Shown here: positions 25,670-55,379 of the stretch, one piece after another
Numbering within the stretch: the first letter of the stretch is position 1
How the letters are laid out: every line of letters starts with the position of its first letter
DNA from: Trypanosoma brucei
Lineage: Eukaryota
NCBI GenBank assembly: GCA_000002445.1
Contig: CP000071.1
Span: forward strand, 2,144,001 to 2,208,000
Reading direction: 5' to 3'
Length of the DNA: 64,000 bases
Position numbers and translations under genes: made by a program
Notes under the pieces: model-generated
Databases searched by the model: none
What the model was told of the DNA's origin: nothing
The model's input: only the letters and a program-made list of their open reading frames with translations

Positions 25670-28600
25670 GTGGTGCGCCTGCAAACCTTTTACCGCCCTT
25701 TCTTGCGTAAAAATTGTTGGCAAAAGGGTAAAGAGGGTCAAAGGTGTCGAAGACTAGTTGCACATGTTACAGACGTTGTAATAAACATGTGTGTGGGTAC
25801 AGTGCCCACACTCTCCCTTGCGTTACGTTTACCTCACGCGCATGGTTACTCACCTTTCATTTTCTCTGGCATCTACGCTCTCTCGTATACCATTAGTGAT
25901 CGTAGGACAACGAAATTGATAGGAATGCTGGACACCAATGGGACTGCAGAACTCACCGTGCACTGTGCGAGTCCGCTACAGCCCTCAAGTAACAGTCGTA
26001 ACTCGAAGCAGTTAAGCCCCATAACACCGATCGCCAGCACCATCCACTCGGCAAGCGCCAACAGTCCACTCTCTCAATGCCAGCAGAACACCGCAGAGGT
26101 TGGCATCGGGGGACCGCACTTTGCGCTTGCATTGACTGCTGTCGGGGCTGACACCGCTGCCGGGGAGGCGGTTTCCATTGCAAACGGAACATTCAGTGGC
26201 AACGGGCTCTCGGCCTACGTATCGAAATTGTCGGAAATAGTTGGTGAACCGCCATTTACAGAGGAAGAGATACTTGAAGAATTGGAAAAACTGCGCACAC
26301 GCTCACAGCTAACGTCAGCACCTTTCAACCGTCGATTATTACCCATACTTGCACGGTATCAGCTAAGAGAGAAGTGGGGGCCAGCAGCGGAGCCGTACGC
26401 CGAGCGTCTCGTCACAGATGATGGTTCAGTGGTTCCTTCATTCCTCCCAGAATTGCATCGTATTCGTGAAAGACGGCAGCAGCTGGATAAGGTGCAGAAG
26501 TGCCGCTCCTTCCACTGCTACAAAATACCACCACCACCGCTCCGACCCCAAGGAGAAACATCCACCACGCGACCACTACTGGAGGAGGAGTTAGTCGCGG
26601 CCAAACAGTTTACACGTTCTTGGCTGGGGCCTTCTCACAAAGCAACGCCTGATACCAATGATTACAAACACACTTTCAACAACGAGGGACAACAAACGCC
26701 AAGGGGGAAAAGAATCCCTGATGTGTTTTCCAGTCCGCAGACACCACAGACGCCGACAACGGAAAAAGATCACACGGCTCCGCAGCGGTTGCAAACTCCC
26801 ACCCAGATACACACGGCAATGCAGTCCAGTCGCACCAAGACTATGCTGGTTAACAGTACCATAGACATCCCAAATAATCAGGGAAACGATGCCAATGAAT
26901 CCCGTATACGAGGTATGAGTGCCAGCAGCCTGCTGGTTAACAGTACCATAGACATCCCAAATAATCAGGGAAACGATGCCAATGAATCCCGTATACGAGG
27001 TATGAGTGCCAGCAGCCTGCTGGTTAACAGTACCATAGACATCCCAAATAATCAGGGAAACGATGCCAATGAATCCCGTATACGAGGTATGAGTGCCAGC
27101 AGCCTGCTGGTTAACAGTACCATGGGCATCCCAAATAATCAGGGAAACGATGCCAATGAATCCCGTATACGAGGTATGAGTGCCAGCAGCCTGCTGGTTA
27201 ACAGTACCATAGACATCCCAAATAATCAGGGAAACGATGCCAATGAATCCCGTATACGAGGTATGAGTGCCAGCAGCCTGCTGGTTAACAGTACCATAGA
27301 CATCCCAAATAATCAGGGAAACGATGCCAATGAATCCCGTATACGAGGTATGAGTGCCAGCAGCCTGTTGGTTAACAGTACCATGGGCATCCCAAATAAT
27401 CAGAGAAACGATGCCAATGAATCCCGTATACGAGGTATGAGTGCCAGCAGCCTGTTGGTTAACAGTACCATGGGCATCCCAAATAATCAGGGAAACGATG
27501 CCAATGAATCCCGTATACGAGGTCTGAGTGCCAGCAGCCTGTTGGTTAACAGTACCATGGACATCCCAAATAATCAGGGAAACGATGCCAATGAATCCCG
27601 TATACGAGGTATGAGTGCCAGCAGCCTGTTGGTTAACAGTACCATGGGCATCCCAAATAATCAGGGAAACGATGCCAATGAATCCCGTATACGAGGTATG
27701 AGTGCCAGCAGCCTGCTGGTTAACAGTACCATAGACATCCCAAATAATCAGGGAAACGATGCCAATGAATCCCGTATACGAGGTATGAGTGCCAGCAGCC
27801 TGCTGGTTAACAGTACCATGGGCATCCCAAATAATCAGGGAAACGATGCCAATGAATCCCGTATACGAGGTCTGAGTACCAGCAGCCTGTTGGTTAACAG
27901 TACCATGGACATCCCAAATAATCAGGGAAACGATGCCAATGAATCCCGTATACGAGGTCTGAGTACCAGCAGCCTGTTGGTTAACAGTACCATAGACATC
28001 CCAAATAATCAGGGAAACGATGCCAATGAATCCCGTATACGAGGTATGAGTGCCAGCAGCCTGTTGGTTAACAGTACCATGGGCATCCCAAATAATCAGG
28101 GAAACGATGCCAATGAATCCCGTATACGAGGTATGAGTGCCAGCAGCCTGTTGGTTAACAGTACCATGGGCATCCCAAATAATCAGGGAAACGATGCCAA
28201 TGAATCCCGTATACGAGGTATGAGTGCCAGCAGCCTGCTGGTTAACAGTACCATGGGCATCCCAAATAATCAGGGAAACGATGCCAATGAATCCCGTATA
28301 CGAGGTCTGAGTGCCAGCAGCCTGCTGGTTAACAGTACCATAGACATCCCAAATAATCAGGGAAACGATGCCAATGAATCCCGTATACGAGGTCTGAGTG
28401 CCAGCAGCCTGTTGGTTAACAGTACCATGGGCATCCCAAATAATCAGGGAAACGATGCCAATGAATCCCGTATACGAGGTATGAGTGCCAGCAGCCTGTT
28501 GGTTAACAGTACCATAGACATCCCAAATAATCAGGGAAACGATGCCAATGAATCCCGTATACGAGGTCTGAGTGCCAGCAGCCTGCTGGTTAACAGTACC

Positions 28601-29254
28601 ATAGACATCCCAAATAATCAGGGAAACGATGCCAATGAATCCCGTATACGAGGTCTGAGTGCCAGCAGCCTGTTGGTTAACAGTACCATGGACATCCCAA
28701 ATAATCAGGGAAACGATGCCAATGAATCCCGTATACGAGGTCTGAGTACCAGCAGCCTGTTGGTTAACAGTACCATGGGCATCCCAAATAATCAGGGAAA
28801 CGATGCCAATGAATCCCGTATACGAGGTCTGAGTGCCAGCAGCCTGTTGGTTAACAGTACCATGGGCATCCCAAATAATCAGGGAAACGATGCCAATGAA
28901 TCCCGTATACGAGGTATGAGTGCCAGCAGCCTGTTGGTTAACAGTACCATGGACATCCCAAATAATCAGGGAAACGATGCCAATGAATCCCGTATACGAG
29001 GTCTGAGTACCAGCAGCCTGTTGGTTAACAGTACCATAGACATCCCAAATAATCAGGGAAACGATGCCAATGAATCCCGTATACGAGGTCTGAGTGCCAG
29101 CAGCCTGTTGGTTAACAGTACCATGGGCATCCCAAATAATCAGGGAAACGATGCCAATGAATCCCGTATACGAGGTCTGAGTGCCAGCAGCCTGTTGGTT
29201 AACAGTACCATGGGCATCCCAAATAATCATGGACGGAGTGCGAAAAATATTTGA
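25670..29254 (+). CDS. Repetitive protein: unique about 390-aa N-terminal region followed by about 27.5 tandem copies of a 29-aa unit (LLVNSTIDIPNNQGNDANESRIRGMSASS)
   Basis: A long + strand ORF whose 3' 2.4 kb is a near-perfect 87-bp tandem repeat held in one reading frame. The stop lies just past the last (degenerate) unit, NNHGRSAKNI. The true start is probably an internal Met (e.g. MCVGTV or MLDTNGTAE). Confidence 0.6.
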   Translation: MVRLQTFYRPFLRKNCWQKGKEGQRCRRLVAHVTDVVINMCVGTVPTLSLALRLPHAHGYSPFIFSGIYALSYTISDRRTTKLIGMLDTNGTAELTVHCASPLQPSSNSRNSKQLSPITPIASTIHSASANSPLSQCQQNTAEVGIGGPHFALALTAVGADTAAGEAVSIANGTFSGNGLSAYVSKLSEIVGEPPFTEEEILEELEKLRTRSQLTSAPFNRRLLPILARYQLREKWGPAAEPYAERLVTDDGSVVPSFLPELHRIRERRQQLDKVQKCRSFHCYKIPPPPLRPQGETSTTRPLLEEELVAAKQFTRSWLGPSHKATPDTNDYKHTFNNEGQQTPRGKRIPDVFSSPQTPQTPTTEKDHTAPQRLQTPTQIHTAMQSSRTKTMLVNSTIDIPNNQGNDANESRIRGMSASSLLVNSTIDIPNNQGNDANESRIRGMSASSLLVNSTIDIPNNQGNDANESRIRGMSASSLLVNSTMGIPNNQGNDANESRIRGMSASSLLVNSTIDIPNNQGNDANESRIRGMSASSLLVNSTIDIPNNQGNDANESRIRGMSASSLLVNSTMGIPNNQRNDANESRIRGMSASSLLVNSTMGIPNNQGNDANESRIRGLSASSLLVNSTMDIPNNQGNDANESRIRGMSASSLLVNSTMGIPNNQGNDANESRIRGMSASSLLVNSTIDIPNNQGNDANESRIRGMSASSLLVNSTMGIPNNQGNDANESRIRGLSTSSLLVNSTMDIPNNQGNDANESRIRGLSTSSLLVNSTIDIPNNQGNDANESRIRGMSASSLLVNSTMGIPNNQGNDANESRIRGMSASSLLVNSTMGIPNNQGNDANESRIRGMSASSLLVNSTMGIPNNQGNDANESRIRGLSASSLLVNSTIDIPNNQGNDANESRIRGLSASSLLVNSTMGIPNNQGNDANESRIRGMSASSLLVNSTIDIPNNQGNDANESRIRGLSASSLLVNSTIDIPNNQGNDANESRIRGLSASSLLVNSTMDIPNNQGNDANESRIRGLSTSSLLVNSTMGIPNNQGNDANESRIRGLSASSLLVNSTMGIPNNQGNDANESRIRGMSASSLLVNSTMDIPNNQGNDANESRIRGLSTSSLLVNSTIDIPNNQGNDANESRIRGLSASSLLVNSTMGIPNNQGNDANESRIRGLSASSLLVNSTMGIPNNHGRSAKNI
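26845..29235 (+). repeat. 87-bp tandem repeat, about 27.5 copies, over 95% identical; variants confined to a few codons (ATA/ATG, GAC/GGC, ATG/CTG, GCC/ACC, CTG/TTG)
   Basis: Direct reading: the period is 87 nt (atagacatcc at 26861 and again at 26948). Counting the ESRIRG motif in the translation gives 27 complete units plus one partial. The 879-aa ORF on the opposite strand (26591..29230) exists only because the repeat lacks stops in that frame. Confidence 0.95.
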
Positions 29255-31943: not shown

Positions 31944-33790
31944 AGACTCCAAAGGAGAGCGGAGCAAACCTGCACATGAAGACGCGCGGAGAAAGTTCGG
32001 TCGTGGTTCTTGGTTTAAATGACCAGCAGTAGGTTTCACCACGCGAGCCCTTTTTGTTTTCATTTGCTTTTTCTTCCCTCTTTGCTGTTTAGTGAGTTGT
32101 GTTGTCTTTCCTTCGTTGTTTCTATTGTATTTTTTTCCTAGTGACTGTGTAATTGGTTAAGCGGCGCATATTAGCTCATCGTTTGATTTTATTTTGTTAT
32201 TGTTGCTTTTGTTTGTCGACGATAGTTATAATTAATGTGGCCACGTTGCTCACGAATATTTGCATGAGTTTCTACTGTACAAATATGTTTGACTGTGCGT
32301 TTTCTTTGATGTTAGGGCGGTGGACACAAAAGTCGACATTTGCATGCAAGACGCCACTGCTACCACGGCTCTAAGTGCATCTGAGCAGCGAGGTAATGTC
32401 GGGGACACATGTGTGTATGTGTTGAAAGAAGGAGAGAGTGTAACCATCTGACTGAACCTGCGCAATGGGGCGGTTTCGATATGTTGAACAGGGGAAAAAC
32501 TCGGGTGTTGGAAGTGAACTGAGGCCGCGGGAAGCGTAAAGTGTGGAGAAATGTAGGGGAAAAGACTCGGAGAGAAAACAGCGGAAGCGTGTGGGTGGAG
32601 GGGAAAAAATAAGGAAGTAGACCTGTAAGGAGGAGGGGGCGCATTTAGCGTATTTGGAGTACCTTTCGCTCCTCTAAGGTCTCTTCCTCTTTTCTTTTAC
32701 ACCCTTTTCAACACTTTCCGTCCCTTATACCCCCTCAGGCACTTACTTACTTACCTTGGCATTGGCACCTTTTGTTCACTTGTCCTGCTTGTTGGCTAAA
32801 TTCTTGGGCTATGCCCCGTCTCTTCGGTCAGTGGTTTCTCCCCCCCCCCTCCCTCGTGTCTATTTATTTATTTTCGTTCTGATTTTAAAAGTAAGTGAAG
32901 ACAGGCGCAGTCCGGCTGCCATTTTGTTTGTTTTCAACGTTTTTCTTAATTGTATTATTGAGTTGTATTGCACTGTTTTGCCCTTGGTTTGTAAGCAAAA
33001 CAGCAAATGCAGGCGCATACGTGCGCATTGTCACGAAATTCTACGGCACGCATAATTGTCAGTAATGCCATCATTTTTGGGGGGTTTTAATTCCTGTGCT
33101 TTCAATTTTTTTGTGAAAAAAAAGGAGGGACATTTCTCTAAACTCTTTTCACCTTCCCTCTCCGAACACAACGGCAACGCATCGTATGAGGGAATTTCCC
33201 CCTTGCCTACACACTGCAGTAGGGCACATCGTTATATTAGGGGAGGGGAAACCAAACGCAGACAAAGCGTCCGTGAGAAAATGTATTTCTGATCGTAAAT
33301 ACAGAAGGGGGAAATCGATAAGTACATGTTTATATTTACTTATATTTATGAAAGTACTCGAATTATGGAATAAGAGGACTTAAGTGAGAAGGAGAGAACG
33401 ATTACACGCCCTCGCATGTTCCCTTTGCCTTCTTGATCTGCACCTTTCCAGTGATGCCCAGCACCCCCTTTACACGCTACCAGTTTTACATGGAGCTCTA
33501 TAAGTCGTAGGACACAGTATTTTATTCCACTTCCCCGCGCATGTGTATACACGGATGTACATGTATATATTGGTATATATTTAGTTGTTTCATTTATACT
33601 TTGTGGTGGTCTGACGTTTCGTTGTGCCCCCAATTCGCCACCATTAATCTTTTTGTTTTGTTTTTCGTTGTTTTGTTTGTATTTTCATCCATAACTGCAG
33701 CTAGACTGAAACTGCCTACACCCCCTCCCCTTCCCTTTTTTACTCTGGGGTAGCCTGTAACGTGGGCCTTTTCTGATGCTGTTACCGGGG

Positions 33791-33968
33791 TCCTCCCCAG
33801 ACATAAGTGGTGAAGTCCTCGTGCCGCCGTGCTTCCACCCATCTGGAAAATATGTACCTTTTCACTATTATCTCTTCACATAAACATAACAATACAAGGG
33901 ATATTAAACCCACCAAGGTTGCGGGTGTGGGCGCGTGTGTGCCAGAGGTGGAAACTGTGCGGAACAGT
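33791..33968 (+). repeat. Left copy of an about 180-bp direct repeat that flanks the CorA-like gene
   Basis: tcctccccagacataagtggtgaagtcctcgtgccgccgtgcttccacccatctggaaaatatgtaccttttcac...gccagaggtggaaactgtgcggaacagt recurs at 35936-36127 with a few substitutions and a short insertion. The spurious reverse ORFs at both sites start with the same peptide, MGGSTAARGLHHLCLG. Confidence 0.9.
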
Positions 33969-33997
33969 GGGACCACGTGAAACAGTGACGCAACGGG

Positions 33998-35692
33998 ATG
34001 ATACCGAATGGCGGGGAAGCTGCAGGTGCATCACGCGAGCACACGCAGGGGCAGAACGCAGGCAGTTGCGCCCTCAACGTAGGAACAAATGGGAAGTGGG
34101 AGCCTTACGGGTACAATTACAGGGAAAGGGAGCAATCACATTTGAACAGTTCGAGGGGAGCACCGCTGCAGGTACGGGTCGTTGTGCAACTCCCCAACGG
34201 CACCGTGCGCGAGTGGAAAGATTTTGCGCAGTTGCAGGCACTACCCCAAATTCTCCGTGAGGTGTATACCACCACACCAGACCAAGGTCGTAGTTCGGCG
34301 GGATCCCTCTCACCGTTAAAATTCTTCTGGATAGATATGAGCGGCATGCCGCAGCGGGAAGATCTGAGTGCCCTATTCGAGCTCCTTCACGTGTGCAAAC
34401 ATACGGAGCGAAGGTGGCGAGCTATGGCAGCAGCGCCTCCCGGGGTCGGGTTAGGCGGGTTTCCGCTAAATAATGGCACCTGCGAAGAAGGGGCGGAGCG
34501 GTCTCACTATGACGAAGATGATTATTACGACAATGCAACGGAGCTCGACTACTTACGGGCCTTCGTTGCGGAGCAGTATGTTCAGATTAGCCTTACGGTT
34601 CTTGAATCACCAAACGTGACGGTGTATGGATTACCAATGGAAAAGGACACTGAAAGGGAAATGGGCACTGAGAAGCACCAACGGCAGCGAGAGGGCTCGC
34701 GGCCGAACCTTCTCGACGCGTGTGAGTCAGGAACCCTGGCTTCTGTGCAAGTGTTGTGCTTCGTCAATGGAGTCGTCACCTGGCGGCCACAGCCGGCGGT
34801 GGAAGGGTGGGAATACATTCCCCACGGTCTCGAACGTAGACTGAGTAACAGCACCAACATTGGTGATGGCAGAGCAGTTGGTGACGGCAACGAGGGACCG
34901 CGCGGAGCACTAACCACGTCTCTGCTTGTACTCACCATTCTCGACGAACTTTATATGGCTTTCCTTCCAGATACGACAATAGTGCTCAGCGAGGTGGATA
35001 CAATCGACTCTATGTTGCCACTTGTCCGACAGCGAATGTCAGACCAGGCGGACATATTGAGGCGCATTCAAATGTTGCGTCGGAGTTTGTCGGTACATCG
35101 GCGCGTGCTGATGAGCAAGGTTAGTGTGCTTGAGCTCTTGAGCAGACCCACTGTGCGCGTACTCTTACCCTTCATGAATCCAATCACGGACGCCGTCAAT
35201 GAAAAAGAACGGGAGCATTGTCGCGAGCCATTTGACCCCCGCGTGTATCAACCGAGACACCGCCACGGAGAATTGCACTACGACCAGTCTGAAGCAATGG
35301 CAAGGCGCGCCCCTTCATCAGGGCAACAGAGCGACACCTACGCAGATATCGCCTGTCGCATTCTGCACGTCCTTTCTAAGCTCGAGGACGCGCGCAGGAT
35401 TCTCACAAACTCTATCATCATCCACTCCTCGGGTGTTGCGGCGGTGAACAACTACAACAGCAATCAGTCTGATACCCTCAGCATTACGCTGGGCTACGTT
35501 GCTTTGATGTCCCTGCCCCCAACTATCGTAGCTTCGCAATGGGGAATGAACGTTTACGTCCCGTGGGTGGATACGAATTCTACCGTGCCCTTCTGGGGTA
35601 TTGTAGGTGCGGTGACGGCATACGCGGCCCTCGTGCTCTCCTATCCAATATTCTGTTGGATCAGGGGCAGACCGGACAAACTAGTCTTTTAG
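33998..35692 (+). CDS. Putative CorA/MRS2-family (MIT) Mg2+ transporter-like protein
   Basis: A large soluble N-terminal region, then two C-terminal TM helices. TM1 (LSITLGYVALMSLPPTIVASQW) ends in a GMN motif (QWGMNVYVPW). TM2 is FWGIVGAVTAYAALVLSYPIFCWI, with a short basic C-tail. This topology and GMN position are diagnostic of CorA/Mrs2 channels. The rest of the protein is too divergent to confirm by eye. Confidence 0.5.
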   Translation: MIPNGGEAAGASREHTQGQNAGSCALNVGTNGKWEPYGYNYREREQSHLNSSRGAPLQVRVVVQLPNGTVREWKDFAQLQALPQILREVYTTTPDQGRSSAGSLSPLKFFWIDMSGMPQREDLSALFELLHVCKHTERRWRAMAAAPPGVGLGGFPLNNGTCEEGAERSHYDEDDYYDNATELDYLRAFVAEQYVQISLTVLESPNVTVYGLPMEKDTEREMGTEKHQRQREGSRPNLLDACESGTLASVQVLCFVNGVVTWRPQPAVEGWEYIPHGLERRLSNSTNIGDGRAVGDGNEGPRGALTTSLLVLTILDELYMAFLPDTTIVLSEVDTIDSMLPLVRQRMSDQADILRRIQMLRRSLSVHRRVLMSKVSVLELLSRPTVRVLLPFMNPITDAVNEKEREHCREPFDPRVYQPRHRHGELHYDQSEAMARRAPSSGQQSDTYADIACRILHVLSKLEDARRILTNSIIIHSSGVAAVNNYNSNQSDTLSITLGYVALMSLPPTIVASQWGMNVYVPWVDTNSTVPFWGIVGAVTAYAALVLSYPIFCWIRGRPDKLVF

Positions 35693-35935
35693 TATTGGTG
35701 GCACGGCCTCATCTGCAGATAGTTTGCGCGGTGCGTCCGGGAAGAATATCCACGGAGGCTTTGGTCAGCTGTGCATGAAACGCCCAGAAGGCAGCGTTTG
35801 TAGTCGAAGATCCACGTGTGAAGAGAAAGAAAGGTGGAAGTGGCATAACACGGAGAAAGGACCTTCTCTTGCTATTCACCACGCGGCCTGCAGCGGCACT
35901 TGGTGTACAATTGCCCTCCTGCAACGTTCTACACG

Positions 35936-36127
35936 CTCCTCCCAGACATAAGTGGTGAAGTCCTCGTGCCGCCGTGCTTCCACCCATCTGGAAAATATGT
36001 ACCTTTTCACTGTTATCTCTTCACACAAACATACATACATAAACATAACAATACAAGGGATATTAAACCCACCAAAGTTGCGGGTGTAGGCACGTGTGTG
36101 CCAGAGGTGGAAACTGTGCGGAACAGT
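35936..36127 (+). repeat. Right copy of the about 180-bp direct repeat flanking the CorA-like gene (contains an extra acatacatacat insertion)
   Basis: See the left copy at 33791..33968. This copy starts about 244 bp after the stop codon at 35692. Confidence 0.9.
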
Positions 36128-37056
36128 TGTAGCTGACGGAGAGCTTCTTGGGAACGGAGATCATCTGTCCACACGCCTAGACATCGTAACAGGTTGGTAA
36201 AATATACGCAACTACAAACCGTCATATGCTTGCTAACTACATCGCTACTCTGTTTTCTGAAAAGAGCGAGGGGTTGCAGAAGCAATGGTCCATGTAGTCC
36301 CAACACCGCATCAGGTTCAGTTACGTTGATACCCGGTGCTTCCCACCGTTGCGACTTCGCAGAGGGAGCTTGGACATCACGTACCGTGGCAGGGATGCAA
36401 TACCACTGTACGCTACGGTATGGACGCGACGAACGCGCTCCCAGTTTCCTCATATCCACCGTATTTTGGGACGAAAAGCAAAATAAGCAAGTTCGGCAGT
36501 GGTGATTACGTGAATTTGATCTTCGCCACACTGTGATGCTAGCGAATGTTTTCTTTTTATATAAAGACCAGCTGGAAGGACGGTCTTAACTTCATTCTTG
36601 CGAATGATTCCGGTGTCTTGATGTTTGAAGGGAGTAGCTGCGGTAGCGCTCATATGTTTTCATATGTGCGGTCGCACTCCAGGTCAAGGAAACCGTGCCC
36701 TTTTATGGTGATACCTCCCCCTAACCACGAGTAATTGGCCTCTTCTCGTCGTGAGTGTGTACCCCCTTTCTGTCTCAATTTATTTATTCGTTTAAATTTT
36801 GTTTTGTTGTGGCGGGGTATTTTCTGGTGGCTGCGTATTTCCTATTTATTAATGATTTGTAGCCCACTGAACACGAGCACGTTCGTGTCATCGCCTTTTT
36901 GTTTTTTGATGAGTCGCTCACAGACCAAAAAGGTCACCAGTGCGCCACCGGTCCCGAGTCTTTGCACGTAACTCTCCAGTCGTTGCTAACATGGTTACAA
37001 ATGTCACCAACAACACCACGAGGATGTCCTTGTGAGTTGTCCATCTATTTACGTAC

Positions 37057-38691
37057 TTGGCACCTCCTTTTTCTATTTTTGCTGCATTTGCAGAAAAGGA
37101 AGGGGACAACGCTGCGCCATCAGCGCTGATGACATACAATGAGGCGGCGCTGTCAAAGTATCGCGGCCTGCTGGATAGCGGTGAGCCGTTTCGCAGCAGG
37201 ACATGCCGATACTGTTCCAGTGGAAACACGGCGGTAAAGCATATAAACAGCAAAAAGAAACCCAATTCGCCGTGGGACTTTTGGAACGGCATTGCTTGTT
37301 CCCCAACCGCCTCACATGCACGCGCGGAGGGGCGCAAGAGGACGCCAATGTATGTTGTGGGACCAATGGTGGACCAAAGCGAACTGCCATTCCGTCTGCT
37401 CTGTCGGCGTTATGGGGCTACACTGGCATACACCCCAATGTTTCATGCAAAGAGCTTCGCCCAAAGTGCACACTACCGCCAACGCTACTTTTCAACAACA
37501 ACATTTCCTCCACATTCCGCCATGGAATCAGGGGGAAATGTTGCCGCTAACGATAGCACCAGTAACGATGGGGCATTAGATAATGACCATCCGCTGTTCG
37601 CTCAGTTCTGTGGAAATGACCCTGAAACCGTCCTTGCCGCCGCTCGACATGTGGAGGATTACTGCGAGGCCGTTGATTTCAACATCGGTTGCCCGCAAGG
37701 CATCGCCCGCCGTGGCCATTATGGCTCGTTCCTCATGGAGGACTGGGAATTGCTTCACAACATTCTCCATGCGTTAGCAGTTGAGCTTCGCGTCCCTGTA
37801 ACAGCAAAAATGAGAATATTTGACGATGAGGCACTGACACTAAAATACGCTGAGATGCTGCGTGACACGGGAATCTATGTCCTCTGTGTGCATGGCCGGA
37901 CCCGCGAAAACAAGGGACAGCAACAGCAGCCCGCAGACCTACGAATGATACGCCGTGTGCACGAGCATTTGAGGGGTTCTATTCCTATCATTGCAAACGG
38001 CAACGTGCTTACATTCGAGGACGTGCCACGAAACTTAGCCATAACGGGTTGCGAAGGATATATGTGCGCAGAGCCTCTGCTGTGGGATCCGAAGTTGTTT
38101 GCACCGTTAGCTTCAAGTTCGACCGCGGAGTTCGCTCCCAACATAACCGATTCAACCTTATCAACTTCTCCAGCACCGTCCACAGTTCGCAGTGGTCGGC
38201 TCTTTGCGGAGTCCCGGCCGACACGTCTGAAAGCACTGGCCACGGCGTCAGAATACCTGGAGCTAGTTCGTCGTTTCCCTGTGGACATTGGTTTCGTCAA
38301 GGCGCACTTCTTCAAGATGCTGTACCACAGCTATGAAATGCATCCGGCGCATCAACAGTGGCTAGCAAATTTCAGCATTAATGGCAGTAACGTTGGCAAC
38401 GATGTTGTCGAAAACTGTGCGACGAGTCACTGCGGCGAGCAAAGGGAAACGACGGTGGTGGGCCGCGATATCTTCACAGCGGCTCTTGACGCCCTAACCG
38501 ATCATCTTCATTCGCTTCAGAAAGCCGAACTTTCGTTAGAACACGACGGCCCGCAGCCGAAGCGTCAGCGGGAGCTTAAGGTGGGAGAAGAAGGAAAGGA
38601 ACGGCAGCAGCTGAAGAATGGAAGGAGAGTGGACGCTTTAACGGATACCTTTGCGGATGACGAAACGCTTGGCATCGACTTCTTGATGTGA
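37057..38691 (+). CDS. tRNA-dihydrouridine synthase (Dus family; Dus1-like)
   Basis: A Dus/TIM-barrel flavoenzyme. Motifs seen: PMVDQSELPFRLLCRRYGATLAYTPM; the FMN/catalytic region LFAQFCGNDPE...VDFNIGCPQ (catalytic Cys); VPVTAKMRI (conserved Lys); LCVHGRT; PIIANGNV. The N-terminal about 90 aa of the ORF may be leader; MYVVGPM is a possible start. Confidence 0.8.
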   Translation: MAPPFSIFAAFAEKEGDNAAPSALMTYNEAALSKYRGLLDSGEPFRSRTCRYCSSGNTAVKHINSKKKPNSPWDFWNGIACSPTASHARAEGRKRTPMYVVGPMVDQSELPFRLLCRRYGATLAYTPMFHAKSFAQSAHYRQRYFSTTTFPPHSAMESGGNVAANDSTSNDGALDNDHPLFAQFCGNDPETVLAAARHVEDYCEAVDFNIGCPQGIARRGHYGSFLMEDWELLHNILHALAVELRVPVTAKMRIFDDEALTLKYAEMLRDTGIYVLCVHGRTRENKGQQQQPADLRMIRRVHEHLRGSIPIIANGNVLTFEDVPRNLAITGCEGYMCAEPLLWDPKLFAPLASSSTAEFAPNITDSTLSTSPAPSTVRSGRLFAESRPTRLKALATASEYLELVRRFPVDIGFVKAHFFKMLYHSYEMHPAHQQWLANFSINGSNVGNDVVENCATSHCGEQRETTVVGRDIFTAALDALTDHLHSLQKAELSLEHDGPQPKRQRELKVGEEGKERQQLKNGRRVDALTDTFADDETLGIDFLM

Positions 38692-39281: not shown

Positions 39282-41903
39282 ATGGAACATCTGAAAATTT
39301 TTCCGCGTCTCGGGAGAACTCTACTAGTCATCACTGTTTTTCTCATGGCTTTCCCCCCGGGAGTCGCCAAATGTCAAAAGCAACGGTACCAGAAACCTCA
39401 GTTGGAAAAGGTGGGGGAGGGAAATCAAAAGACGCCGAAGGTGCGGAATCGCCTGTCTGGCACTCTGTCATCCGGAGATGTCCGCACCTTCAGTGGAATA
39501 CGATCGGTACTTCACAAGGGTGGCGACGGTATCAAGTATAAGACCCAACGCCGTGATTACACAACAACCAGTAAGCCCACAGGGGCCCAGTTCCTCACGG
39601 CGCAGACAGCCCAACTTGAAGAAGGGACACAGCAGGATAAAGCGAATCAAACCGACATCAATATTCGGGTGTATGATATGAGAAAACAAAAGGAAATTAA
39701 CAAATTTCGTCAGTCGACGGGTGTGTATTTGGTCAATGCAGTCCCAGGCAGCACAAAGTATCTGGAATTTGAAAGCAGCACACGTGACGAGATAAGTGTA
39801 GTCACACAGCTGCTGAGCAACCGCTACGACACGGACGTTCCCGCTGACAACTGCGTGGGTTACTTTGTGAACGTGGAAATACGCAACAGCAGCGAAGTGA
39901 ATCTGACGGCACTTACCACGCCGAAAGACCCTCCGGCAGTAGGTGAAGAAGATAAAAACGGTAGCAGCACGAGTACTCATGGGGGGGAAGGTGAAAACTA
40001 CGAACTGGAGGGAGGTTGGAAATTCCTGTGGAGTGTCATTGCCACAATGCTCGACACGAGCAGCTTTTGTGATTTGCTCCCGAAGGTTATGCTGCGTGTC
40101 GAGCCAGATCCGGAGCCACAATCATACGTAGTTCTATTCCAGTCGCATATCGGGATGGGTTTGGGCTCTCAGCGCAGGGGAAAAGACTGTCTACTTAGGG
40201 TGTTTGTCACGCGAACTCCCAAAGAAAGGGAACGCCGTATGCAAAATACCTTCGCTCTGGGCGTTCCACTCCTCATCCTGTTGCTCATGGCACCAATGAC
40301 CTTCATGCATGCCCACTTGCTGCCAGACTTCATGGCCGACATTGATGTGGTGTTCTGGTTGATATACCCGGCAGTGGCAATGAGGAATGGACTAGCATGC
40401 CTTTTCGTGTACCTTTATCGAGTGTCGCGGGAGGCGTACGTCGCGCGGCGGGAGGAGCGGCGTCAGCGTCAACTTGAGGAGCAGCACCGGCAGATCATGG
40501 AGCAAGAAGCCCTTGTATTGGCAGATGTGACCATGAACAATGTAGACAAAAACAATAAGGGTAGTAGCTCTAACGCCAAGCTGTCCCATCAGCCGCTTGC
40601 TCATATGAGCCAGACACCGCAGGGAGCGGAGGAGGGATTTGATGGGGCAGAAGGCGGGGCACATGCGGAAAAGCATAAAAAACAAGAGGGATGGAATGCT
40701 AACGCTGACCAGAGGAACAGGGAGGGGCCAAGCGGGGCAGCAGTTGCTCAGGTAGAACATGCACCACTGCTCTCCTCCAGGAAGGCATTGACGGCAGAAG
40801 ATGTTGTAGTAATGGACGACATGGTTGACATGGATCTGGACGGCGATGATGAGGCCCACGGTGGCTTGAGGCGACCACTCATAACAGGTCAAAAGAAAGT
40901 GAAGAAAGCTACGGGTAGTGTTGAGGGAGAGTTTGCGGGTTCCACAGTGGGAGAGGGATCGGCACCGGCAACCAGGTCGGAAGAAGCGGACGGCTCCAAC
41001 GATGCTGAACCAGCTGCGGTAGTTGGGCAAGGAAAAGCCGTCTCAACTCGCTCTGCAGTCAGTGGGGGTGCGCCGGCAAAAAGTGATTGTGAGGAGGAGG
41101 ATGACGAGCGCATCTGCCGTATCTGCCGTGACGATGAAACCGACGAAAAACTTATATCCGCATGCGAGTGCATAGGCTCTGTGCGTTGGATCCACGTCTC
41201 CTGCCTCGACAGATGGCGTATTGAAAGCACCAAACGGAATCTTCACAATGTGAACTGCTGCGAGATCTGTAAAAAGCCTTTCCACGTCCCTATAAGCCGC
41301 CACGCACAGATCATGAGGAACTTAAAGAGTGTGAGTCGCGGTCTGCTGCTCGTGTTCAGCATCATATTTACATTTATCACGGCCACTATAGGCCAACGCG
41401 TGACGCTTGGTGAGATGACCTGCCGCACGCCGTGGCACACTGTCTCTTATAGCACCATGTTTGAGATCGACGGAGTTGTCCTCACCGTATTCATGCAGTT
41501 TACGCTGACGATGCTGGCGGTCTATGCGTTCGCACTAGTGAGCGCCCGCTTCCACGCGGACCCCGAAACACTGGAGCATCTTCTGACCTTTCAGACCTTC
41601 CCCCCCTTTTGGACGATGCGAAACACTGGTATGATAGTGTTGATTTTTGCAGGAGGGGTTCTGCAAGCCCTAGCACTTGGTCTCCTAACCAAACTCTTTA
41701 TTTACCGCACGAGCAACATTGTGTGGTCATGGGAGGCGTCGCCCTGCATAGGAGCGGTACTGTTCCTGGGATACGTGGCGATGGGAACATTGGTTTCTGT
41801 CAAAGTCCATTCTTGGGCACAGCGCAGGCGCCTACGGCAGGCACGTCGGGTGCAGGTACGGAACGTAGAAGAACAGGGGGACCAGCAGCGGCAGTTGCCC
41901 TAG
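39282..41903 (+). CDS. RING-CH (RINGv, C4HC3) zinc-finger membrane protein, MARCH-like putative E3 ubiquitin ligase
   Basis: C4HC3 signature CRICRDDETDEKLISACECIGSVRWIHVSCLDRWRI...NCCEICKKPF, followed by several C-terminal TM helices (LLLVFSIIFTFITATI; VVLTVFMQFTLTMLAVYAFALV; IVLIFAGGVLQALALGLL; IGAVLFLGYVAMGTLV). The N-terminal signal/TM MEHLKIFPRLGRTLLVITVFLMAF and further internal TMs suggest a large polytopic protein. Confidence 0.75.
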   Translation: MEHLKIFPRLGRTLLVITVFLMAFPPGVAKCQKQRYQKPQLEKVGEGNQKTPKVRNRLSGTLSSGDVRTFSGIRSVLHKGGDGIKYKTQRRDYTTTSKPTGAQFLTAQTAQLEEGTQQDKANQTDINIRVYDMRKQKEINKFRQSTGVYLVNAVPGSTKYLEFESSTRDEISVVTQLLSNRYDTDVPADNCVGYFVNVEIRNSSEVNLTALTTPKDPPAVGEEDKNGSSTSTHGGEGENYELEGGWKFLWSVIATMLDTSSFCDLLPKVMLRVEPDPEPQSYVVLFQSHIGMGLGSQRRGKDCLLRVFVTRTPKERERRMQNTFALGVPLLILLLMAPMTFMHAHLLPDFMADIDVVFWLIYPAVAMRNGLACLFVYLYRVSREAYVARREERRQRQLEEQHRQIMEQEALVLADVTMNNVDKNNKGSSSNAKLSHQPLAHMSQTPQGAEEGFDGAEGGAHAEKHKKQEGWNANADQRNREGPSGAAVAQVEHAPLLSSRKALTAEDVVVMDDMVDMDLDGDDEAHGGLRRPLITGQKKVKKATGSVEGEFAGSTVGEGSAPATRSEEADGSNDAEPAAVVGQGKAVSTRSAVSGGAPAKSDCEEEDDERICRICRDDETDEKLISACECIGSVRWIHVSCLDRWRIESTKRNLHNVNCCEICKKPFHVPISRHAQIMRNLKSVSRGLLLVFSIIFTFITATIGQRVTLGEMTCRTPWHTVSYSTMFEIDGVVLTVFMQFTLTMLAVYAFALVSARFHADPETLEHLLTFQTFPPFWTMRNTGMIVLIFAGGVLQALALGLLTKLFIYRTSNIVWSWEASPCIGAVLFLGYVAMGTLVSVKVHSWAQRRRLRQARRVQVRNVEEQGDQQRQLP

Positions 41904-47903: not shown

Positions 47904-50318
47904 TACGCAACTTGTCACTCCAAATGAGGCCTGGAGATTGTGCTTAACCTTGTATCACCTGTTTATCTATACCATCGTCATAAATTAACCTATTTTTTTT
48001 TTTGCTTTCAACACTCTTTTTCGTGTACACGGTTGGTCAAGTGATGTTTGTTAAACCCTCTCTTTTTGTGCGGTTATTTCTGTTTTACAGTTGTTTTCCT
48101 TTTTTAAAATGACAAACGTCTCCCATTGCGCAGGTACACGTGTGAATATATACATGCATGTGTGTGTCGGCGTGTTGTTGTCCGTTTCTCCCCACCATCA
48201 CCCTCGTCCCCGTGCGCCTGCTGTTGGAGTTTTTTCTCCATTCGGGTGTTGGCATATTTGAAATGGGGAGCTGGCACGATTTATTTGTTTCTTACTTTAT
48301 ATATTTCCTACATTGTCGTGCTTGTTCGTGTTGGACTTATCCTATCGTAACTCTGTTTGCACCACGCTTACAAGGCATTTTTTCTTATACTTCGACAGGG
48401 ATAAGGTGGTAGCCAGTCTATAAAGAGACTGCAGCTATCCTTTCTTGTAACAAAAAAAAAAGAATTTATACCACCATTGGGAAACGTAACCTACTCCCAA
48501 GTGTTTCTAGTAAGTTAGATCTGTCCCTCCCATTTGCTTAAATACGAATGTAGCGTTTGTTCTTGGTATATTTTTTTTTTGCTTGCATCAGTCCTGGATG
48601 CACGTTGTCGAACAGGTTGTAGTATATAATATATGTACAAAAAGTACAACCCCCCCCCTTCCTCGGCTCGCACTGCGCTTTGGCACTATTTTTTTCCTTT
48701 TTTTAGTTGTCGTTGTTATTGTTCTGTTTTGAATAACCCCTCCCTCGTGAAACCGTTTGTACATATGCTTCCCAATAAAAGTCGATGTGGCAGCGCCTTT
48801 GTCACAAGATGAATCACATCTCATGACGTCATGGACTGCGTTAAACTTCGTTAAGATAATAGTAACCTTTCGATGGACCTTCCGCTGCAAAAGCATATCC
48901 TTTTCCCTTCTGCCCCTTCTTATGTTCTCAGGTAGCCAAAAAATGTGAGACAGGGAGTGAATACATGTGCTTCCGCTGTGTGCATGCGGGCCCATGCATG
49001 CAAACAGGTTTGTACACCTTGTGGGATCTGGTAACGAGAATAACCGGAAGATGCAGGAGGGGCACATCATGCGAATGGAGGTGTTGTTCTTTAGGGTTGA
49101 CCACACTATTTTCAGTCCTTTTCTTGCTTGCACGGTTAGCTGTTCGAGAAAATTTTCGCACCAAATGCTGCGGGTGAACAGTGATAACAGGTTTCTACAA
49201 TGCGGTGACGGATATTGACGGAACTTTTCACACCAAAGACCCCTGTCAATGCCCAACTCCACCTGCGGACGGTTACGGCGCCTAGAAAGTTGGAAAGAAA
49301 ATGAAGGGTCGCCCAGCTGCTCTGCTACCCACCATCGTAGGGGCGACAATTTGTATTCAGGTAGAACGGCAGTGAGCCACGGAGGCACAACAAGGGTTTA
49401 GAAAAGAACTTTGATTTTGCGTGCGATGTTTGCCGGTTCCAATGTAATTGATCAGTGTTTAGGGTCATGTCCACCCCCATTCGCTAGTTGTGGACGGTAA
49501 AAAGATACATGTCGCTTAACTGGCAACGTCTCTTTTATGAGCAACATGCATCACAAAAGCCGCGCACAACCGAGCGCACTGTTCACCGACGTGCGAGGTA
49601 CTCACTGTACCCATCGTTTACACTCTCACGAGCTACCCGTAAAAAACAAAACGTTTCACCGGAGTGTGATGCTGCCCAACGGCCATTTAGACACCGTAAC
49701 CTGTCAGTGCCCCCCCCCCCCGCGGTACAAGCAATTAGGTCGTAGAACGGTCACCGGAGAGCACACGGAGTGGATTGTACACATATGCGCCTATCACTTC
49801 AAGCATGAATCGTTGGAGAGGTGGTACCACCGCAGAAACGAAAATGACCAACACACGTAAACACCACTGAGCATACATTGGGATGAGTGTCATCATCTCT
49901 CGGTCGGCAGAAAGCAGTCCATTGGGTGCGGGGGAGAGGAGTACAAGGAAGGGGAAAAAAACAAAAAGAATAATCTGCAACCCGGAAATGTTGAATACAA
50001 CACGCTCATCGGATGAAATAAGGGTTGAACCGCTTATACTACAAATATACCTTCAACAGTCAACACCGAAGAGCAGGGCCTCCAAGGTATTCTAAACAGT
50101 ACATGCACTCCAATAATTATGTTCCGTCGAGGCATTTAACAATTCGCTTAGTACCACGAAAAAGTACACGGTGCCAACAGAAACGTTTAAGCCAAAACAC
50201 GCGCAAACAACAGTGTTGGTACGCAATTTTCCCCTTAACATTATTACTTTCCCCCTACCTCATATTTTCTATATCCATCAAGTGTGTAACCACAAAGACA
50301 CTTAACCACCAAAAGAAA

Positions 50319-51722
50319 ATGACCAGCATCAATGCCCAACCACCCAACTCAGCCACTTATTCTCAGGATGATCATGGCAGCGCAGAAGTTGTGAACCTAA
50401 ATGCTGAGGTGGAACGCCCACAGCCAGAGGAACGGAAAGATGGTGGTGGTTGCTTTGCCAGGGTGAGTCTATTTATGGCAACTATCATCCCACCGGGAGG
50501 TATCGCCGCAAGTGCCTTCAACATTGCATCTTCAACCATTGGTGCCGGCATTGTAGGCTTGCCTTCTGCCGCCAACAGCAGTGGGCTTGTGATGGCGATG
50601 ATTTATCTTATTATCATTACGGCAATGTCTGTGTTTACAATGCACAATCTCGCAGTGGTTGCTGATAAATCAAGTGCTCGCACGTTCGAGGAAATAACAG
50701 GCAAGTTGCTTGGGCGTGGAGCTTCATATTGTCTCGCTGGAGTTCGTGCTTTCCATGGCTTCAGTGGATGTGTGGCATATGTGATTTCTGTGGGTGATAT
50801 CCTGAGTGCTACCTTAAAGGGTACCAATGCTCCGGATTTCCTGAAGCAGAAGTCAGGCAACCACCTGCTGACATCCCTCATGTGGTTATGCTTCATGCTT
50901 CCACTTGTAATACCTCGGCACATTGACTCCCTACGTCACGTTTCAACCATTGCCGTCAGTTTCATTATCTACCTCGTCATCGTTATTGTAGTGCACTCAT
51001 GCATGAATGGGTTACCGGAAAATATCAAGAACGTCAGTGTGGGAAAGGATGACAATGCTGAGATTATATTGTTTAACAGTGGGAACAGAGCCATCGAAGG
51101 TCTTGGAGTATTCATGTTCGCTTATGTGTGCCAAGTCGTCGCAGTGGAGATATACATGGACATGACAGACCGTTCTCCGCGAAGATTTGTCCTTGCATCT
51201 GCAATTGCATTGGGTATCTGCTTCGCATTGTACGTAATGACAGCCTTCTTTGGTTACATGGACTTTGGTCGTGCTGTTACTGGCTCTGTGCTTCTGATGT
51301 ATGACCCAGTGAATGAACCTGCAATTATGGTCGGTTTCGTTGGTGTGCTCGTCAAGCTATGTGCGTCATATGCATTGCTTGGAATGGCTTGTCGCAACGG
51401 CTTGTACAGCATCGTGGGATGGGATGCCGACAAGGTTGCCTTCTGGAAGCACTGCATTGCCGTTGTTACTCTCTCTGTCGTCATGTTGTTGTGTGGCCTA
51501 TTCATCCCGAATATCAACACAGTTCTTGGGTTCGCTGGTTCCATCTCTGGTGGATCGCTGGGTTTCCTATTTCCCGCCTTATTGGTGATGTATTCCGGTG
51601 GCTTTACGTGGCAGAAGGTGGGTCCGTTTTATTATCTTACTACATACGCTGTATTACTTACAGGTGTTATTGCCATTGTATTTGGTACGGGAGCGACCAT
51701 CTGGGGAACTGCGACTGGTTAA
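50319..51722 (+). CDS. Amino acid transporter (AAT/AAAP family), array copy 1 (most divergent copy)
   Basis: 467 aa with about 11 TM helices. Conserved AAAP N-terminal block GGCFARVSLFMATIIPPGGIAASAFNI..GAGI.GLP.AANSSGLVMAMIYLIIITAM. The start is set at the MTSINAQ shared by all copies, not the upstream in-frame Met of the ORF track. Confidence 0.85.
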   Translation: MTSINAQPPNSATYSQDDHGSAEVVNLNAEVERPQPEERKDGGGCFARVSLFMATIIPPGGIAASAFNIASSTIGAGIVGLPSAANSSGLVMAMIYLIIITAMSVFTMHNLAVVADKSSARTFEEITGKLLGRGASYCLAGVRAFHGFSGCVAYVISVGDILSATLKGTNAPDFLKQKSGNHLLTSLMWLCFMLPLVIPRHIDSLRHVSTIAVSFIIYLVIVIVVHSCMNGLPENIKNVSVGKDDNAEIILFNSGNRAIEGLGVFMFAYVCQVVAVEIYMDMTDRSPRRFVLASAIALGICFALYVMTAFFGYMDFGRAVTGSVLLMYDPVNEPAIMVGFVGVLVKLCASYALLGMACRNGLYSIVGWDADKVAFWKHCIAVVTLSVVMLLCGLFIPNINTVLGFAGSISGGSLGFLFPALLVMYSGGFTWQKVGPFYYLTTYAVLLTGVIAIVFGTGATIWGTATG

Positions 51723-55289: not shown

Positions 55290-55350
55290 TTCCCCTTAAC
55301 ATTATTACTTTCCCCCTACCTCATATTTTCTATATCCATCAAGTGTATAA
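55290..55350 (+). promoter_or_regulatory. Conserved polypyrimidine tract upstream of each transporter copy (candidate trans-splice acceptor region); the same element recurs at about 50227-50280, 52795-52855, 58015-58075, 60740-60800 and 63465-63525
   Basis: ccccttaacattattactttccccctacctcatattttctatatccatcAAG lies about 30-90 nt upstream of every transporter ATG and is conserved in all six units. Confidence 0.4.
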
Positions 55351-55379
55351 CCACAAAGACACTTAACCACCAAAAGAAA

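What the first reader, a model, noticed from the sequence alone, without database searches (positions are those of the whole stretch)
33791..36127. CorA-like Mg2+ transporter gene bracketed by about 180-bp direct repeats
A 178-bp element ending 30 bp before the ATG (33791-33968) reappears 244 bp after the stop codon (35936-36127) at about 90% identity plus a 12-bp insertion. A single-copy gene bracketed by direct repeats is a configuration that allows precise excision or amplification by homologous recombination (circular episome or tandem amplicon formation), as documented in Leishmania and possible in trypanosomes. Alternatively it is the footprint of an ancestral tandem duplication in which one gene copy was lost. 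The repeat also places the same sequence in the 5' region of this gene and upstream of the next gene (Dus), so it may be a shared processing or regulatory element.
Basis: seen in the sequence. Interest (0 to 1): 0.5.

Follow-up and report, generated by a model that had tools for sequence, protein, structure and literature searches.

The report
Leftover flank of a lost gene copy
The two ~180-bp repeats around this trypanosome magnesium-transporter gene are real, and they are most likely what remains of an old two-gene tandem array whose second copy was largely deleted, which is an ordinary outcome in these genomes.

Summary
The repeat is real. R1 is 33791-33968 and R2 is 35937-36127. They are direct repeats with 4 substitutions, one 14-bp indel and one 1-bp indel. 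That is about 98% identity, or 90% only if gap columns are counted. There are only two copies in the 64-kb window. The window is Trypanosoma brucei, chromosome-8-like.

Three results explain the repeat:
- A family-HMM six-frame scan of the whole window finds, besides the CorA gene, one further hit (E 5e-4). It is a decayed CorA C-terminus at 36330-36533, on the same strand, 214 bp after R2.
- The syntenic T. congolense locus still carries at least 3 tandem CorA copies directly upstream of Dus.
- In four T. brucei-group genomes, lineage-specific variants (3 substitutions and a 4-bp indel) occur in both R1 and R2. The two copies therefore exchange sequence by gene conversion.

R2 is thus the orphaned 5' flank of a second tandem CorA copy that lost about 1.3 kb. 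Recombination with R1 keeps it similar. Excision or amplification is mechanistically possible, but all four genomes carry exactly one copy. R2 lies about 1 kb from Dus and is not in its processing region. This is an ordinary member of a known kind, and interest is low.

The parts
33711..33753 (+). Strong polypyrimidine tract (33711-33749) followed by the first AG (33752-33753). This is the predicted trans-splice acceptor of the CorA mRNA and lies just upstream of R1.
   Evidence: Pyrimidine-window scan and AG listing and the sequence itself. Its use as the acceptor is inferred, not shown.
33791..33968 (+). R1, the upstream repeat copy (178 bp). It is the 5' flank, probably the 5' UTR, of the intact CorA gene. 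It contains a 42-codon uORF (33852-33980).
   Evidence: repeat; uORF. The left edge marks where homology between unit 1 and unit 2 starts.
33998..35692 (+). Intact CorA/MGT-type Mg2+ transporter gene (564 aa) of the GMN pore-loop type. It is identical to the T. b. brucei TREU927 chromosome 8 protein XP_847585.
35693..35936 (+). Unique 244-bp spacer between the CorA stop codon and R2. Its 3' end is the junction between unit 1 and unit 2 of the former tandem pair.
   Evidence: no homology upstream of R2; no similarity to the post-relic sequence.
35937..36127 (+). R2, the downstream repeat copy (191 bp). It is the orphaned 5' flank of the deleted second CorA copy. Its right edge is the deletion breakpoint.
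   Evidence: It is present in all four T. brucei-group genomes.
36330..36533 (+). Decayed relic of the C-terminal ~55 codons of a second CorA copy (PTVATSQRELGHHVPWQG...YPPYFGTKSKISKF).
   Evidence: tblastn E values are 6e-5 (T. brucei chr4 paralogue), 8e-5 (T. congolense copy 2), 1e-3 and 7e-3. The family HMM against all 2408 six-frame fragments of the window gives E 4.7e-4, with the next hit at E 1.2. The relic is conserved in L001, L002 and L006. The general Pfam CorA model does not detect it.
37056..37093 (+). Polypyrimidine tract and AG that probably serve the Dus mRNA. It is the only strong tract between the CorA stop codon and the Dus ATG (37129).

Best explanation
R1 and R2 are the duplicated 5' flanks of a former two-gene tandem array of CorA-type Mg2+ transporter genes that lay upstream of Dus. 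The first gene, with a GMN pore loop, is intact. In the second gene about 1.3 kb was deleted, running from 30 bp before its ATG into its last ~60 codons. What remains is its 5' flank (R2) and a decayed C-terminal relic 214 bp further on. R2 has stayed about 98% identical to R1 because the two copies still recombine by non-reciprocal gene conversion, whereas the relic has no close partner and has drifted to about 33% amino-acid identity. The repeat boundaries follow from this history. The left edge is the old duplication junction and the right edge is the deletion breakpoint. R1 most likely serves as the CorA 5' UTR. R2 and the relic most likely now ride in the long CorA 3' UTR or intergenic region without a function of their own. 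The pair remains a possible substrate for crossover that would delete or re-duplicate CorA. The following steps are shown: the repeat, the relic, the tandem array in the sister species, and the concerted evolution. The following steps are inferred: the order of events, the UTR assignments and the absence of function.
For: (1) The repeat is real, local and sharply bounded.
(2) The only CorA-like sequence in the window other than the gene itself is at 36330-36533, on the same strand, downstream of R2 and collinear with the C-terminus. The window-wide HMM scan gives E 4.7e-4 against 1.2 for the next hit, and tblastn E values go down to 6e-5. The relic is present in all four genomes.
(3) The syntenic T. 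congolense locus has at least 2 full and 1 partial tandem CorA units of 1941 bp directly upstream of Dus-RINGv. The upstream copies are GMN type and the last copy, next to Dus, is ALE type. The T. brucei relic occupies the same position as that last copy and scores slightly better against ALE-type proteins.
(4) In the four-genome alignment, 3 substitutions and a 4-bp indel separate {window, T. equiperdum OVI} from {T. b. equiperdum IVM-t1, T. b. gambiense} in both R1 and R2. This requires sequence exchange between the copies after those lineages split.
(5) The T. congolense units show the same behaviour: 35 of the 50 differences between the two units fall in one 74-bp patch and only 15 elsewhere.
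(6) Published context. Concerted evolution and unequal crossover are pervasive in T. brucei tandem arrays (PMC1855330). In the chr4/chr8 duplicons, a tandem pair was reduced on each duplicon after the segmental duplication (PMC2212663). The CorA paralogue maps to TREU927 chr4 and the window gene to chr8.
Against: The relic rests on about 55 residues at about 33% identity. It is not detectable at the DNA level or with the general Pfam CorA model. Its assignment to the ALE type is only suggestive (19/57 against 18/57 identities). R has no detectable homologue in the T. congolense spacer. The T. congolense array ends 22 bp after the last stop codon. The two arrays therefore cannot be shown to descend from one duplication event. 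The 214 bp between R2 and the relic shows no similarity to the CDS, so more than one deletion or a rearrangement may be involved. No T. brucei whole genome could be searched, so extra copies of R elsewhere are not excluded.
Confidence: 0.75

Rival explanations
1. The repeat pair is a standing recombination device. Crossover between R1 and R2 excises CorA as a circle, or unequal sister-chromatid exchange amplifies it, and this gives adaptive control of Mg2+ transporter copy number, as with Leishmania amplicons.
For: R1 and R2 do undergo homologous exchange. Intergenic direct repeats of this kind are catalogued in T. brucei (773 repeats), and rearrangement junctions were detected by PCR at four of them (PMC4028189). 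Deletion by homologous recombination between tandem genes has been selected in T. brucei for FRDg/FRDm2 and AQP2/3 (PMC8065229). T. congolense carries several copies at this locus.
Against: All four T. brucei-group assemblies have exactly one CorA between R1 and R2. T. brucei is reported not to maintain or amplify such circles (PMC4028189, PMC8065229). The relic shows that the repeats arose as a by-product of gene loss and were not acquired as a device. At 178/191 bp the repeat is below the 200-nt cut-off used in that catalogue.
Confidence: 0.1
2. R is a functional cis-acting RNA element, for processing, stability or translation, that selection keeps in two places. These would be the 5' UTR and 3' UTR of the CorA mRNA, or the regions upstream of CorA and of a downstream transcript.
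For: Identity is very high next to a strongly decayed relic. R1 sits between the predicted splice acceptor and the ATG and carries a uORF. In both copies homology starts at a pyrimidine-rich ...TCCTCCC(C)AG.
Against: There is no Rfam match. The fold is no more stable than shuffled sequence (z = -0.8). Indels of 14 and 18 bp are polymorphic between strains and change the uORF frame. No counterpart is found in T. congolense or at the chr4 paralogue. No strong polypyrimidine tract precedes R2, and Dus has its own tract 1 kb away. Gene conversion alone explains the identity.
Confidence: 0.08
3. R2 is a recent, independent copy of the CorA 5' flank, made for example by template switching during repair, that happened to land next to an unrelated or spurious CorA-like stretch.
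For: R1 and R2 are about 98% identical, whereas the relic is only about 33% identical at the protein level. No CDS-derived sequence lies directly after R2.
Against: This needs a coincidence of position, strand and order with the relic, and with the T. congolense array layout. The structure is shared by all four genomes, and lineage-specific variants are shared between the copies, so it is not very recent and conversion is active.
Confidence: 0.05
4. R is a member of a dispersed short repeat or degenerate retroposon family, and its bracketing of CorA is coincidental.
For: This could not be tested genome-wide. Trypanosomatid genomes do contain short degenerate retroposons (own knowledge).
Against: There are only two copies in 64 kb and none in the 21.7-kb chr4 paralogous locus or the T. 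congolense locus. Conversion is local. A predicted T. b. gambiense ORF that spans R2 has no homologue other than itself among 5.8 billion proteins. The adjacent relic points to a local origin.
Confidence: 0.02

Closest known systems
Tandem gene arrays of T. brucei evolving in concert (Jackson 2007, PMC1855330)
   Same: The units are head-to-tail and comprise gene plus flank. They are homogenised by gene conversion or unequal crossover while a sub-region escapes. An array is present at the same locus in a related species.
   Different: Here the array has collapsed to about 1.1 units. Only the 5' flank of the second unit is still being homogenised, and its coding part is deleted or decayed.
Post-duplication loss of one member of a tandem pair in the T. 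brucei chr4/chr8 duplicons (dihydrolipoamide dehydrogenase example, Jackson 2007, PMC2212663)
   Same: It lies in the same pair of duplicons: the window gene is on TREU927 chr8 and the paralogue on chr4. A pre-existing tandem pair was reduced to one gene per duplicon.
   Different: That paper's main text does not mention the CorA genes. Here the two duplicons appear to have kept different members (GMN type on chr8, ALE type on chr4), and no relic was detectable on chr4.
[quoted passage not shown] 2014, PMC4028189)
   Same: It is a non-coding direct repeat pair on one chromosome flanking a gene, with identity high enough for homologous recombination. Two-member, chromosome-local repeat groups are the commonest class in that catalogue.
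   Different: The length (178/191 nt) is under their 200-nt threshold. No amplicon or deletion is seen in four genomes. The origin is traceable to gene loss from an array rather than to SIDER-type elements.
Deletions by homologous recombination between tandem paralogues in T. brucei (FRDg/FRDm2 and AQP2/AQP3; Wargnies et al. 2021, PMC8065229)
   Same: Short stretches of homology between adjacent units on one strand recombine. The outcome is loss of the intervening DNA.
   Different: Those events fuse two coding sequences into a chimera. Here the homology is in non-coding flanks, and the deletion that removed copy 2 ended in non-homologous sequence.

Membership tests
Remnant of a tandem gene array with concerted evolution | Repeat copies are in direct orientation, spaced by one gene unit, and homology begins in the gene's flank | tested here: met
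   R1 and R2 are on the same strand with a start-to-start spacing of 2145-2159 bp, equal to flank plus CDS plus spacer.
Remnant of a tandem gene array with concerted evolution | Trace of the second gene copy downstream of the second flank, same strand and collinear | tested here: met
   C-terminal relic at 36330-36533. HMM E 4.7e-4 as the only extra hit in the window, and tblastn E down to 6e-5. It is weak at the DNA level and with Pfam.
Remnant of a tandem gene array with concerted evolution | Array present at the orthologous locus in a related species | tested here: met
   T. congolense IL3000 has at least 2 full and 1 partial CorA units upstream of Dus-RINGv.
Remnant of a tandem gene array with concerted evolution | Paralogous copies share lineage-specific variants (concerted evolution) | tested here: met
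   3 substitutions and a 4-bp indel are shared by R1 and R2 within each of two lineages, across four independent assemblies.
Remnant of a tandem gene array with concerted evolution | The T. brucei and T. congolense duplications descend from the same event | tested here: inconclusive
   There is no detectable DNA homology of R or the spacers between the species. The inference rests on shared order (GMN type, then ALE type or relic, then Dus).
Leishmania-type amplification/deletion repeats (Ubeda 2014 catalogue) | Intergenic, non-coding repeat on the same chromosome with at least 85% identity | tested here: met
   Both copies are intergenic, with 90% identity counting gaps and about 98% not counting them.
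Leishmania-type amplification/deletion repeats (Ubeda 2014 catalogue) | Length 200-2500 nt | tested here: not met
   The copies are 178 and 191 nt and the BLAST alignment is 192 columns. The criterion is read from PMC4028189.
Leishmania-type amplification/deletion repeats (Ubeda 2014 catalogue) | Detectable rearrangement products (circle, deletion or tandem amplification) between the repeats | not testable with these tools
   This needs reads or PCR. The only data available are that four assemblies show one gene copy.
Dispersed short repeat / degenerate retroposon | Many copies at unrelated loci | tested here: inconclusive
   There are 2 copies in 64 kb and none in L003 or L004. The indirect protein-level probe was negative. 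No T. brucei genome was available to scan.
Structured non-coding RNA element | Match to a known RNA family, or a fold more stable than shuffled sequence | tested here: not met
   Rfam gave 0 matches at E<=1. Minimum free energy z-score is -0.81.
CorA/MIT Mg2+ transporter family (the bracketed gene) | Pfam CorA domain above the gathering score, and a GMN motif in the loop after the first C-terminal transmembrane helix | tested here: met
   PF01544 scores 45.7 bits against a cutoff of 27. The motif ...ASQWGMNVYVPW... is present. Transport activity was not tested.

The most novel reading that the evidence does not exclude
R2 is not just debris. Selection would keep the repeat pair because it lets the parasite population toggle CorA (GMN-type Mg2+ transporter) copy number by crossover. 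Alternatively, having the same ~180-nt sequence in both the 5' and 3' UTR of the CorA mRNA would couple its translation or stability to one trans-acting factor. The stumpy-form up-regulation reported for MGT-type transcripts (PMC3694164) would give such a regulatory element something to explain.
Probability: 0.06. Interest if true: 0.5.

Novelty: new member of a known kind. Interest (0 to 1): 0.18.

Why it matters
As it stands this matters little. It is a clean, small example of how trypanosome tandem arrays decay, and of how gene conversion can keep an orphaned flank nearly identical to its partner long after the gene it served is gone. It has practical uses. It warns annotators that 36013-36533 holds a pseudogene relic and not the minus-strand gene called in T. 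b. gambiense. It marks a site where CorA copy-number variants could arise. It also draws attention to the two pore-loop types of this transporter (GMN and ALE), which both African trypanosome species keep.

Tried and rejected
- Rfam scan of 33400-37200 at E<=1 gave nothing.
- The RNA fold of R1 is no better than shuffled sequence.
- A search for analogous bracketing repeats around the chr4 paralogue found only low-complexity chance matches.
- blastn of R against the T. congolense and chr4 loci gave no hit.
- DNA-level comparison of the CorA-Dus intergenic region with the chr4 paralogue and with T. congolense gave no significant hit.
- Local alignment of 36128-36341 against the deleted part of the CDS, and of the 244-bp spacer against the post-relic sequence, was no better than shuffles.
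- tblastn for a reciprocal GMN-type relic or a Dus relic in the chr4 locus found nothing.
- A Pfam scan of the relic peptide found nothing.
- The annotated T. b. gambiense ORF over R2 was used as a probe for dispersed R copies, and only itself was found.
- Attempts to obtain the TriTrypDB gene ID, and hence published splice or poly(A) sites, from the literature and supplements failed.
- A retrogene origin for copy 2 was considered and rejected. No spliced-leader sequence precedes R2 (read from the sequence; the leader sequence itself is recalled from my own knowledge).
- An assembly-collapse artefact was considered and rejected. Four independent assemblies give the same single-copy structure.
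Full report
**Observation**

- The repeat finder and a MAFFT alignment place the upstream copy (R1) at 33791/33796-33968 and the downstream copy (R2) at 35937/35941-36127, in direct orientation.
- A whole-window self-BLAST gives 33791-33968 against 35937-36127, 192 columns, 90.1% identity, E 2.7e-71.
- The 90% figure includes gap columns. The real differences are 4 substitutions, one 14-bp indel (ACACAAACATACAT, inside a CA/CATA-rich stretch) and a 1-nt indel at the left edge. Substitution identity is therefore about 97.7%.
- Sub-patterns of 51 and 41 nt occur exactly twice in the window, with none expected by chance.
- Homology ends abruptly on both sides.
- R1 ends 29-30 bp before the ATG at 33998. 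R2 begins 244 bp after the stop codon, which ends at 35692.

**Context**

- All long ORFs in the window are on the + strand.
- Pfam identifies 33998-35692 as a CorA-family protein, 37129-38691 as Dus, and 39282-41903 as a RING-variant protein. Further downstream are a receptor adenylate cyclase and an amino-acid transporter tandem array.
- The CorA protein is 98-100% identical to Trypanosoma brucei-group proteins. The exact sequence is that of T. b. brucei TREU927 XP_847585, on a 2,481,190-bp record (chromosome 8), and of T. equiperdum OVI.
- A 50%-identical paralogue sits on the 1,590,432-bp TREU927 record (chromosome 4).
- These are the chr4/chr8 duplicons described by Jackson (PMC2212663).
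- The paralogous block reads hyp502 - CorA - RINGv - amino-acid transporters and lacks Dus.

**What the repeat is**

Three lines of evidence converge.

1. A relic of a second gene copy.
   - tblastn of trypanosome CorA proteins against the CorA-Dus intergenic region finds one in-frame stretch on the same strand, at 36342-36494. It matches the last ~55 residues of the family (PTVATSQRELGHHVPWQGCNTTVRY...YPPYFGTKSKISKF against PTIVASQW[GMN/ALE]..VPW...STV.FW...YP.YCWI.G.PDK.).
   - E values are 6e-5 (T. brucei chr4 paralogue), 8e-5 (T. congolense copy 2), 1e-3 (T. congolense copy 1) and 7e-3 (the window gene).
   - As a window-wide control I built an HMM from seven family members and scanned all 2408 six-frame stop-to-stop fragments of the 64 kb. 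Only the gene itself and fragment 36330-36533 (+) were found. The fragment scored E 4.7e-4, aligned to HMM positions 493-546. The next hit had E 1.2.
   - The relic is conserved in three other T. brucei-group genomes.
   - It is too decayed to be seen at the DNA level or by the general Pfam model.
   - Unit 1 has 1550 bp between the end of R1 and the codon for P508, the first residue of the C-terminal match (PTIVASQ). Unit 2 has 214 bp between the end of R2 and the corresponding point. About 1.34 kb is therefore missing from unit 2.

2. An array in the sister species.
   - The syntenic locus in T. congolense IL3000 carries tandem CorA units of 1941 bp directly upstream of Dus and RINGv. There are two complete copies and the 3' end of a third, cut by the contig end.
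   - The partial copy and copy 1 have the canonical ...QWGMNVYVPW... loop. The last copy, next to Dus, has ...QWALEFHVPW..., which is the type found in the T. brucei chr4 paralogue.
   - 35 of the 50 differences between the two T. congolense units lie in one 74-bp patch that encodes this loop. Only 15 lie in the rest of the 1941-bp unit.
   - The T. brucei relic occupies the same position as the ALE-type copy and scores marginally better against ALE-type proteins. That assignment is only suggestive.

3. Concerted evolution of R1 and R2.
   - I aligned R1 and R2 from the window, T. equiperdum OVI (L002), T. b. equiperdum IVM-t1 (L001) and T. b. gambiense DAL972 (L006).
   - All four genomes have the same structure, R1 - one CorA - R2 - relic.
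   - Three substitutions and a 4-bp indel separate {window, OVI} from {IVM-t1, gambiense}. In each lineage the same state is found in both R1 and R2. Without exchange this would need eight parallel changes.
   - One conversion tract of roughly 60 bp explains the pattern. Because it is seen in two independent assemblies per lineage, a polishing artefact is unlikely.
   - This also explains why R2 is about 98% identical to R1 while the adjacent relic has drifted to about 33% amino-acid identity. R2 has a partner to convert with and the relic does not.

**Mechanism and function**

- The left edge of R is most simply the junction of the original duplication. The right edge is the breakpoint of the deletion that removed copy 2.
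- A strong polypyrimidine tract (33711-33749) and the first AG (33752) lie just upstream of R1. R1 is therefore probably the CorA 5' UTR. It carries a 42-codon uORF. The 14- and 18-bp indels found in other strains break that uORF's frame.
- No comparable polypyrimidine tract exists between the CorA stop codon and 37055. The only strong one (37056-37089, AG at 37092) serves Dus.
- By the usual coupling of polyadenylation to the downstream splice site in trypanosomes (established knowledge), R2 and the relic probably lie within a long CorA 3' UTR. These RNA assignments are inferences, because no transcript data were available.
- R has no Rfam match, no unusual fold, no counterpart in T. congolense or at the chr4 paralogue, and no copy elsewhere in the DNA I could read. 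I therefore regard R2 as non-functional debris kept similar by recombination.

- The "ancestral tandem duplication with loss of one copy" alternative is supported.
- The excision/amplification reading is supported only in the sense that the two copies do recombine. Crossover would delete or duplicate CorA. PCR-detectable rearrangements at T. brucei intergenic repeats are published (773 repeats; PMC4028189). Selected deletions by homologous recombination between tandem genes are known (PMC8065229). However, four genomes show a single copy, T. brucei is reported not to amplify such DNA, and the repeat is slightly below the 200-nt criterion of that catalogue.
- The "shared element for CorA and Dus" idea is not supported, because R2 is 1001 bp from the Dus ATG.
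- The refutation test, genome-wide dispersal, could not be run because no T. brucei genome collection was searchable. Indirect evidence is against dispersal.

**Novelty and score**

Decay of tandem arrays, concerted evolution of their units, differential loss after the chr4/chr8 duplication, and recombinogenic intergenic repeats are all documented for T. brucei (PMC1855330, PMC2212663, PMC4028189, PMC8065229). This locus is a further, tidy example and not a new kind of feature. Interest is low (0.18). The most novel reading not excluded is that the pair is selected as a copy-number or UTR-level regulatory device. I give that about 6%.

Noticed in passing
L003 1973-2046 vs 3914-3987 (T. congolense); window 35519-35600; L004 10001-11656: The tandem CorA copies of T. 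congolense differ at only 15 positions outside a 74-bp patch that holds 35 of the 50 differences. The patch recodes the pore-loop signature from WGMNVYVPWVNTDSTVPFW to WALEFHVPWRGGDSTLQFW. T. brucei keeps the same two types at separate loci (chr8 GMN, chr4 ALE). A CorA paralogue without GMN, apparently protected from homogenisation, may form a distinct or heteromeric channel. Among database hits it was seen only in T. brucei and T. congolense.
   Followed up: partly
L004 (T. b. equiperdum IVM-t1; paralogous block, chr4 in TREU927): The paralogous block reads hyp502 - CorA(ALE) - RINGv - amino-acid transporters and mirrors the window's hyp510 - CorA(GMN) - Dus - RINGv ... transporters, but it lacks Dus. 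No Dus relic or GMN-type CorA relic was detectable. In the IVM-t1 assembly both blocks are on one 2.37-Mb record, whereas in TREU927 they are on chr8 and chr4. This may be a scaffolding difference.
   Followed up: partly
window 26844-29233: About 27 head-to-tail copies of an 87-bp (29-codon) unit at 95-98% identity lie inside the long ORF 25670-29254. That ORF has no Pfam match.
   Followed up: no
window 50025-64000: An amino-acid transporter tandem array. A diverged first copy (565 aa, about 82% DNA identity) is followed by at least four 498-aa copies in units of about 2.72 kb at 95-98% identity, and the array runs off the window end.
   Followed up: no
L006 7712-8434 (-) = window ~36013-36531 (-): The T. 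b. gambiense annotation calls a 240-aa minus-strand gene that overlaps R2 and the relic, inside a + strand polycistron. It has no homologue other than itself, so it is probably a spurious call over the pseudogene remnant.
   Followed up: partly
window 33852-33980: A 42-codon uORF lies within R1 and ends 18 nt before the CorA ATG. Its reading frame is not preserved in strains carrying the 14- or 18-bp indel, so any effect would come from the upstream ATG and not from the peptide.
   Followed up: partly
window 35693-35936 vs L006 7696-7913: The 244-bp spacer between the CorA stop codon and R2 carries a 26-bp length difference in T. b. gambiense. Both repeat copies also show length polymorphism in their CA/CATA core (0, 14 or 18 bp). 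This small region is more indel-prone than the neighbouring intergenic DNA.
   Followed up: no
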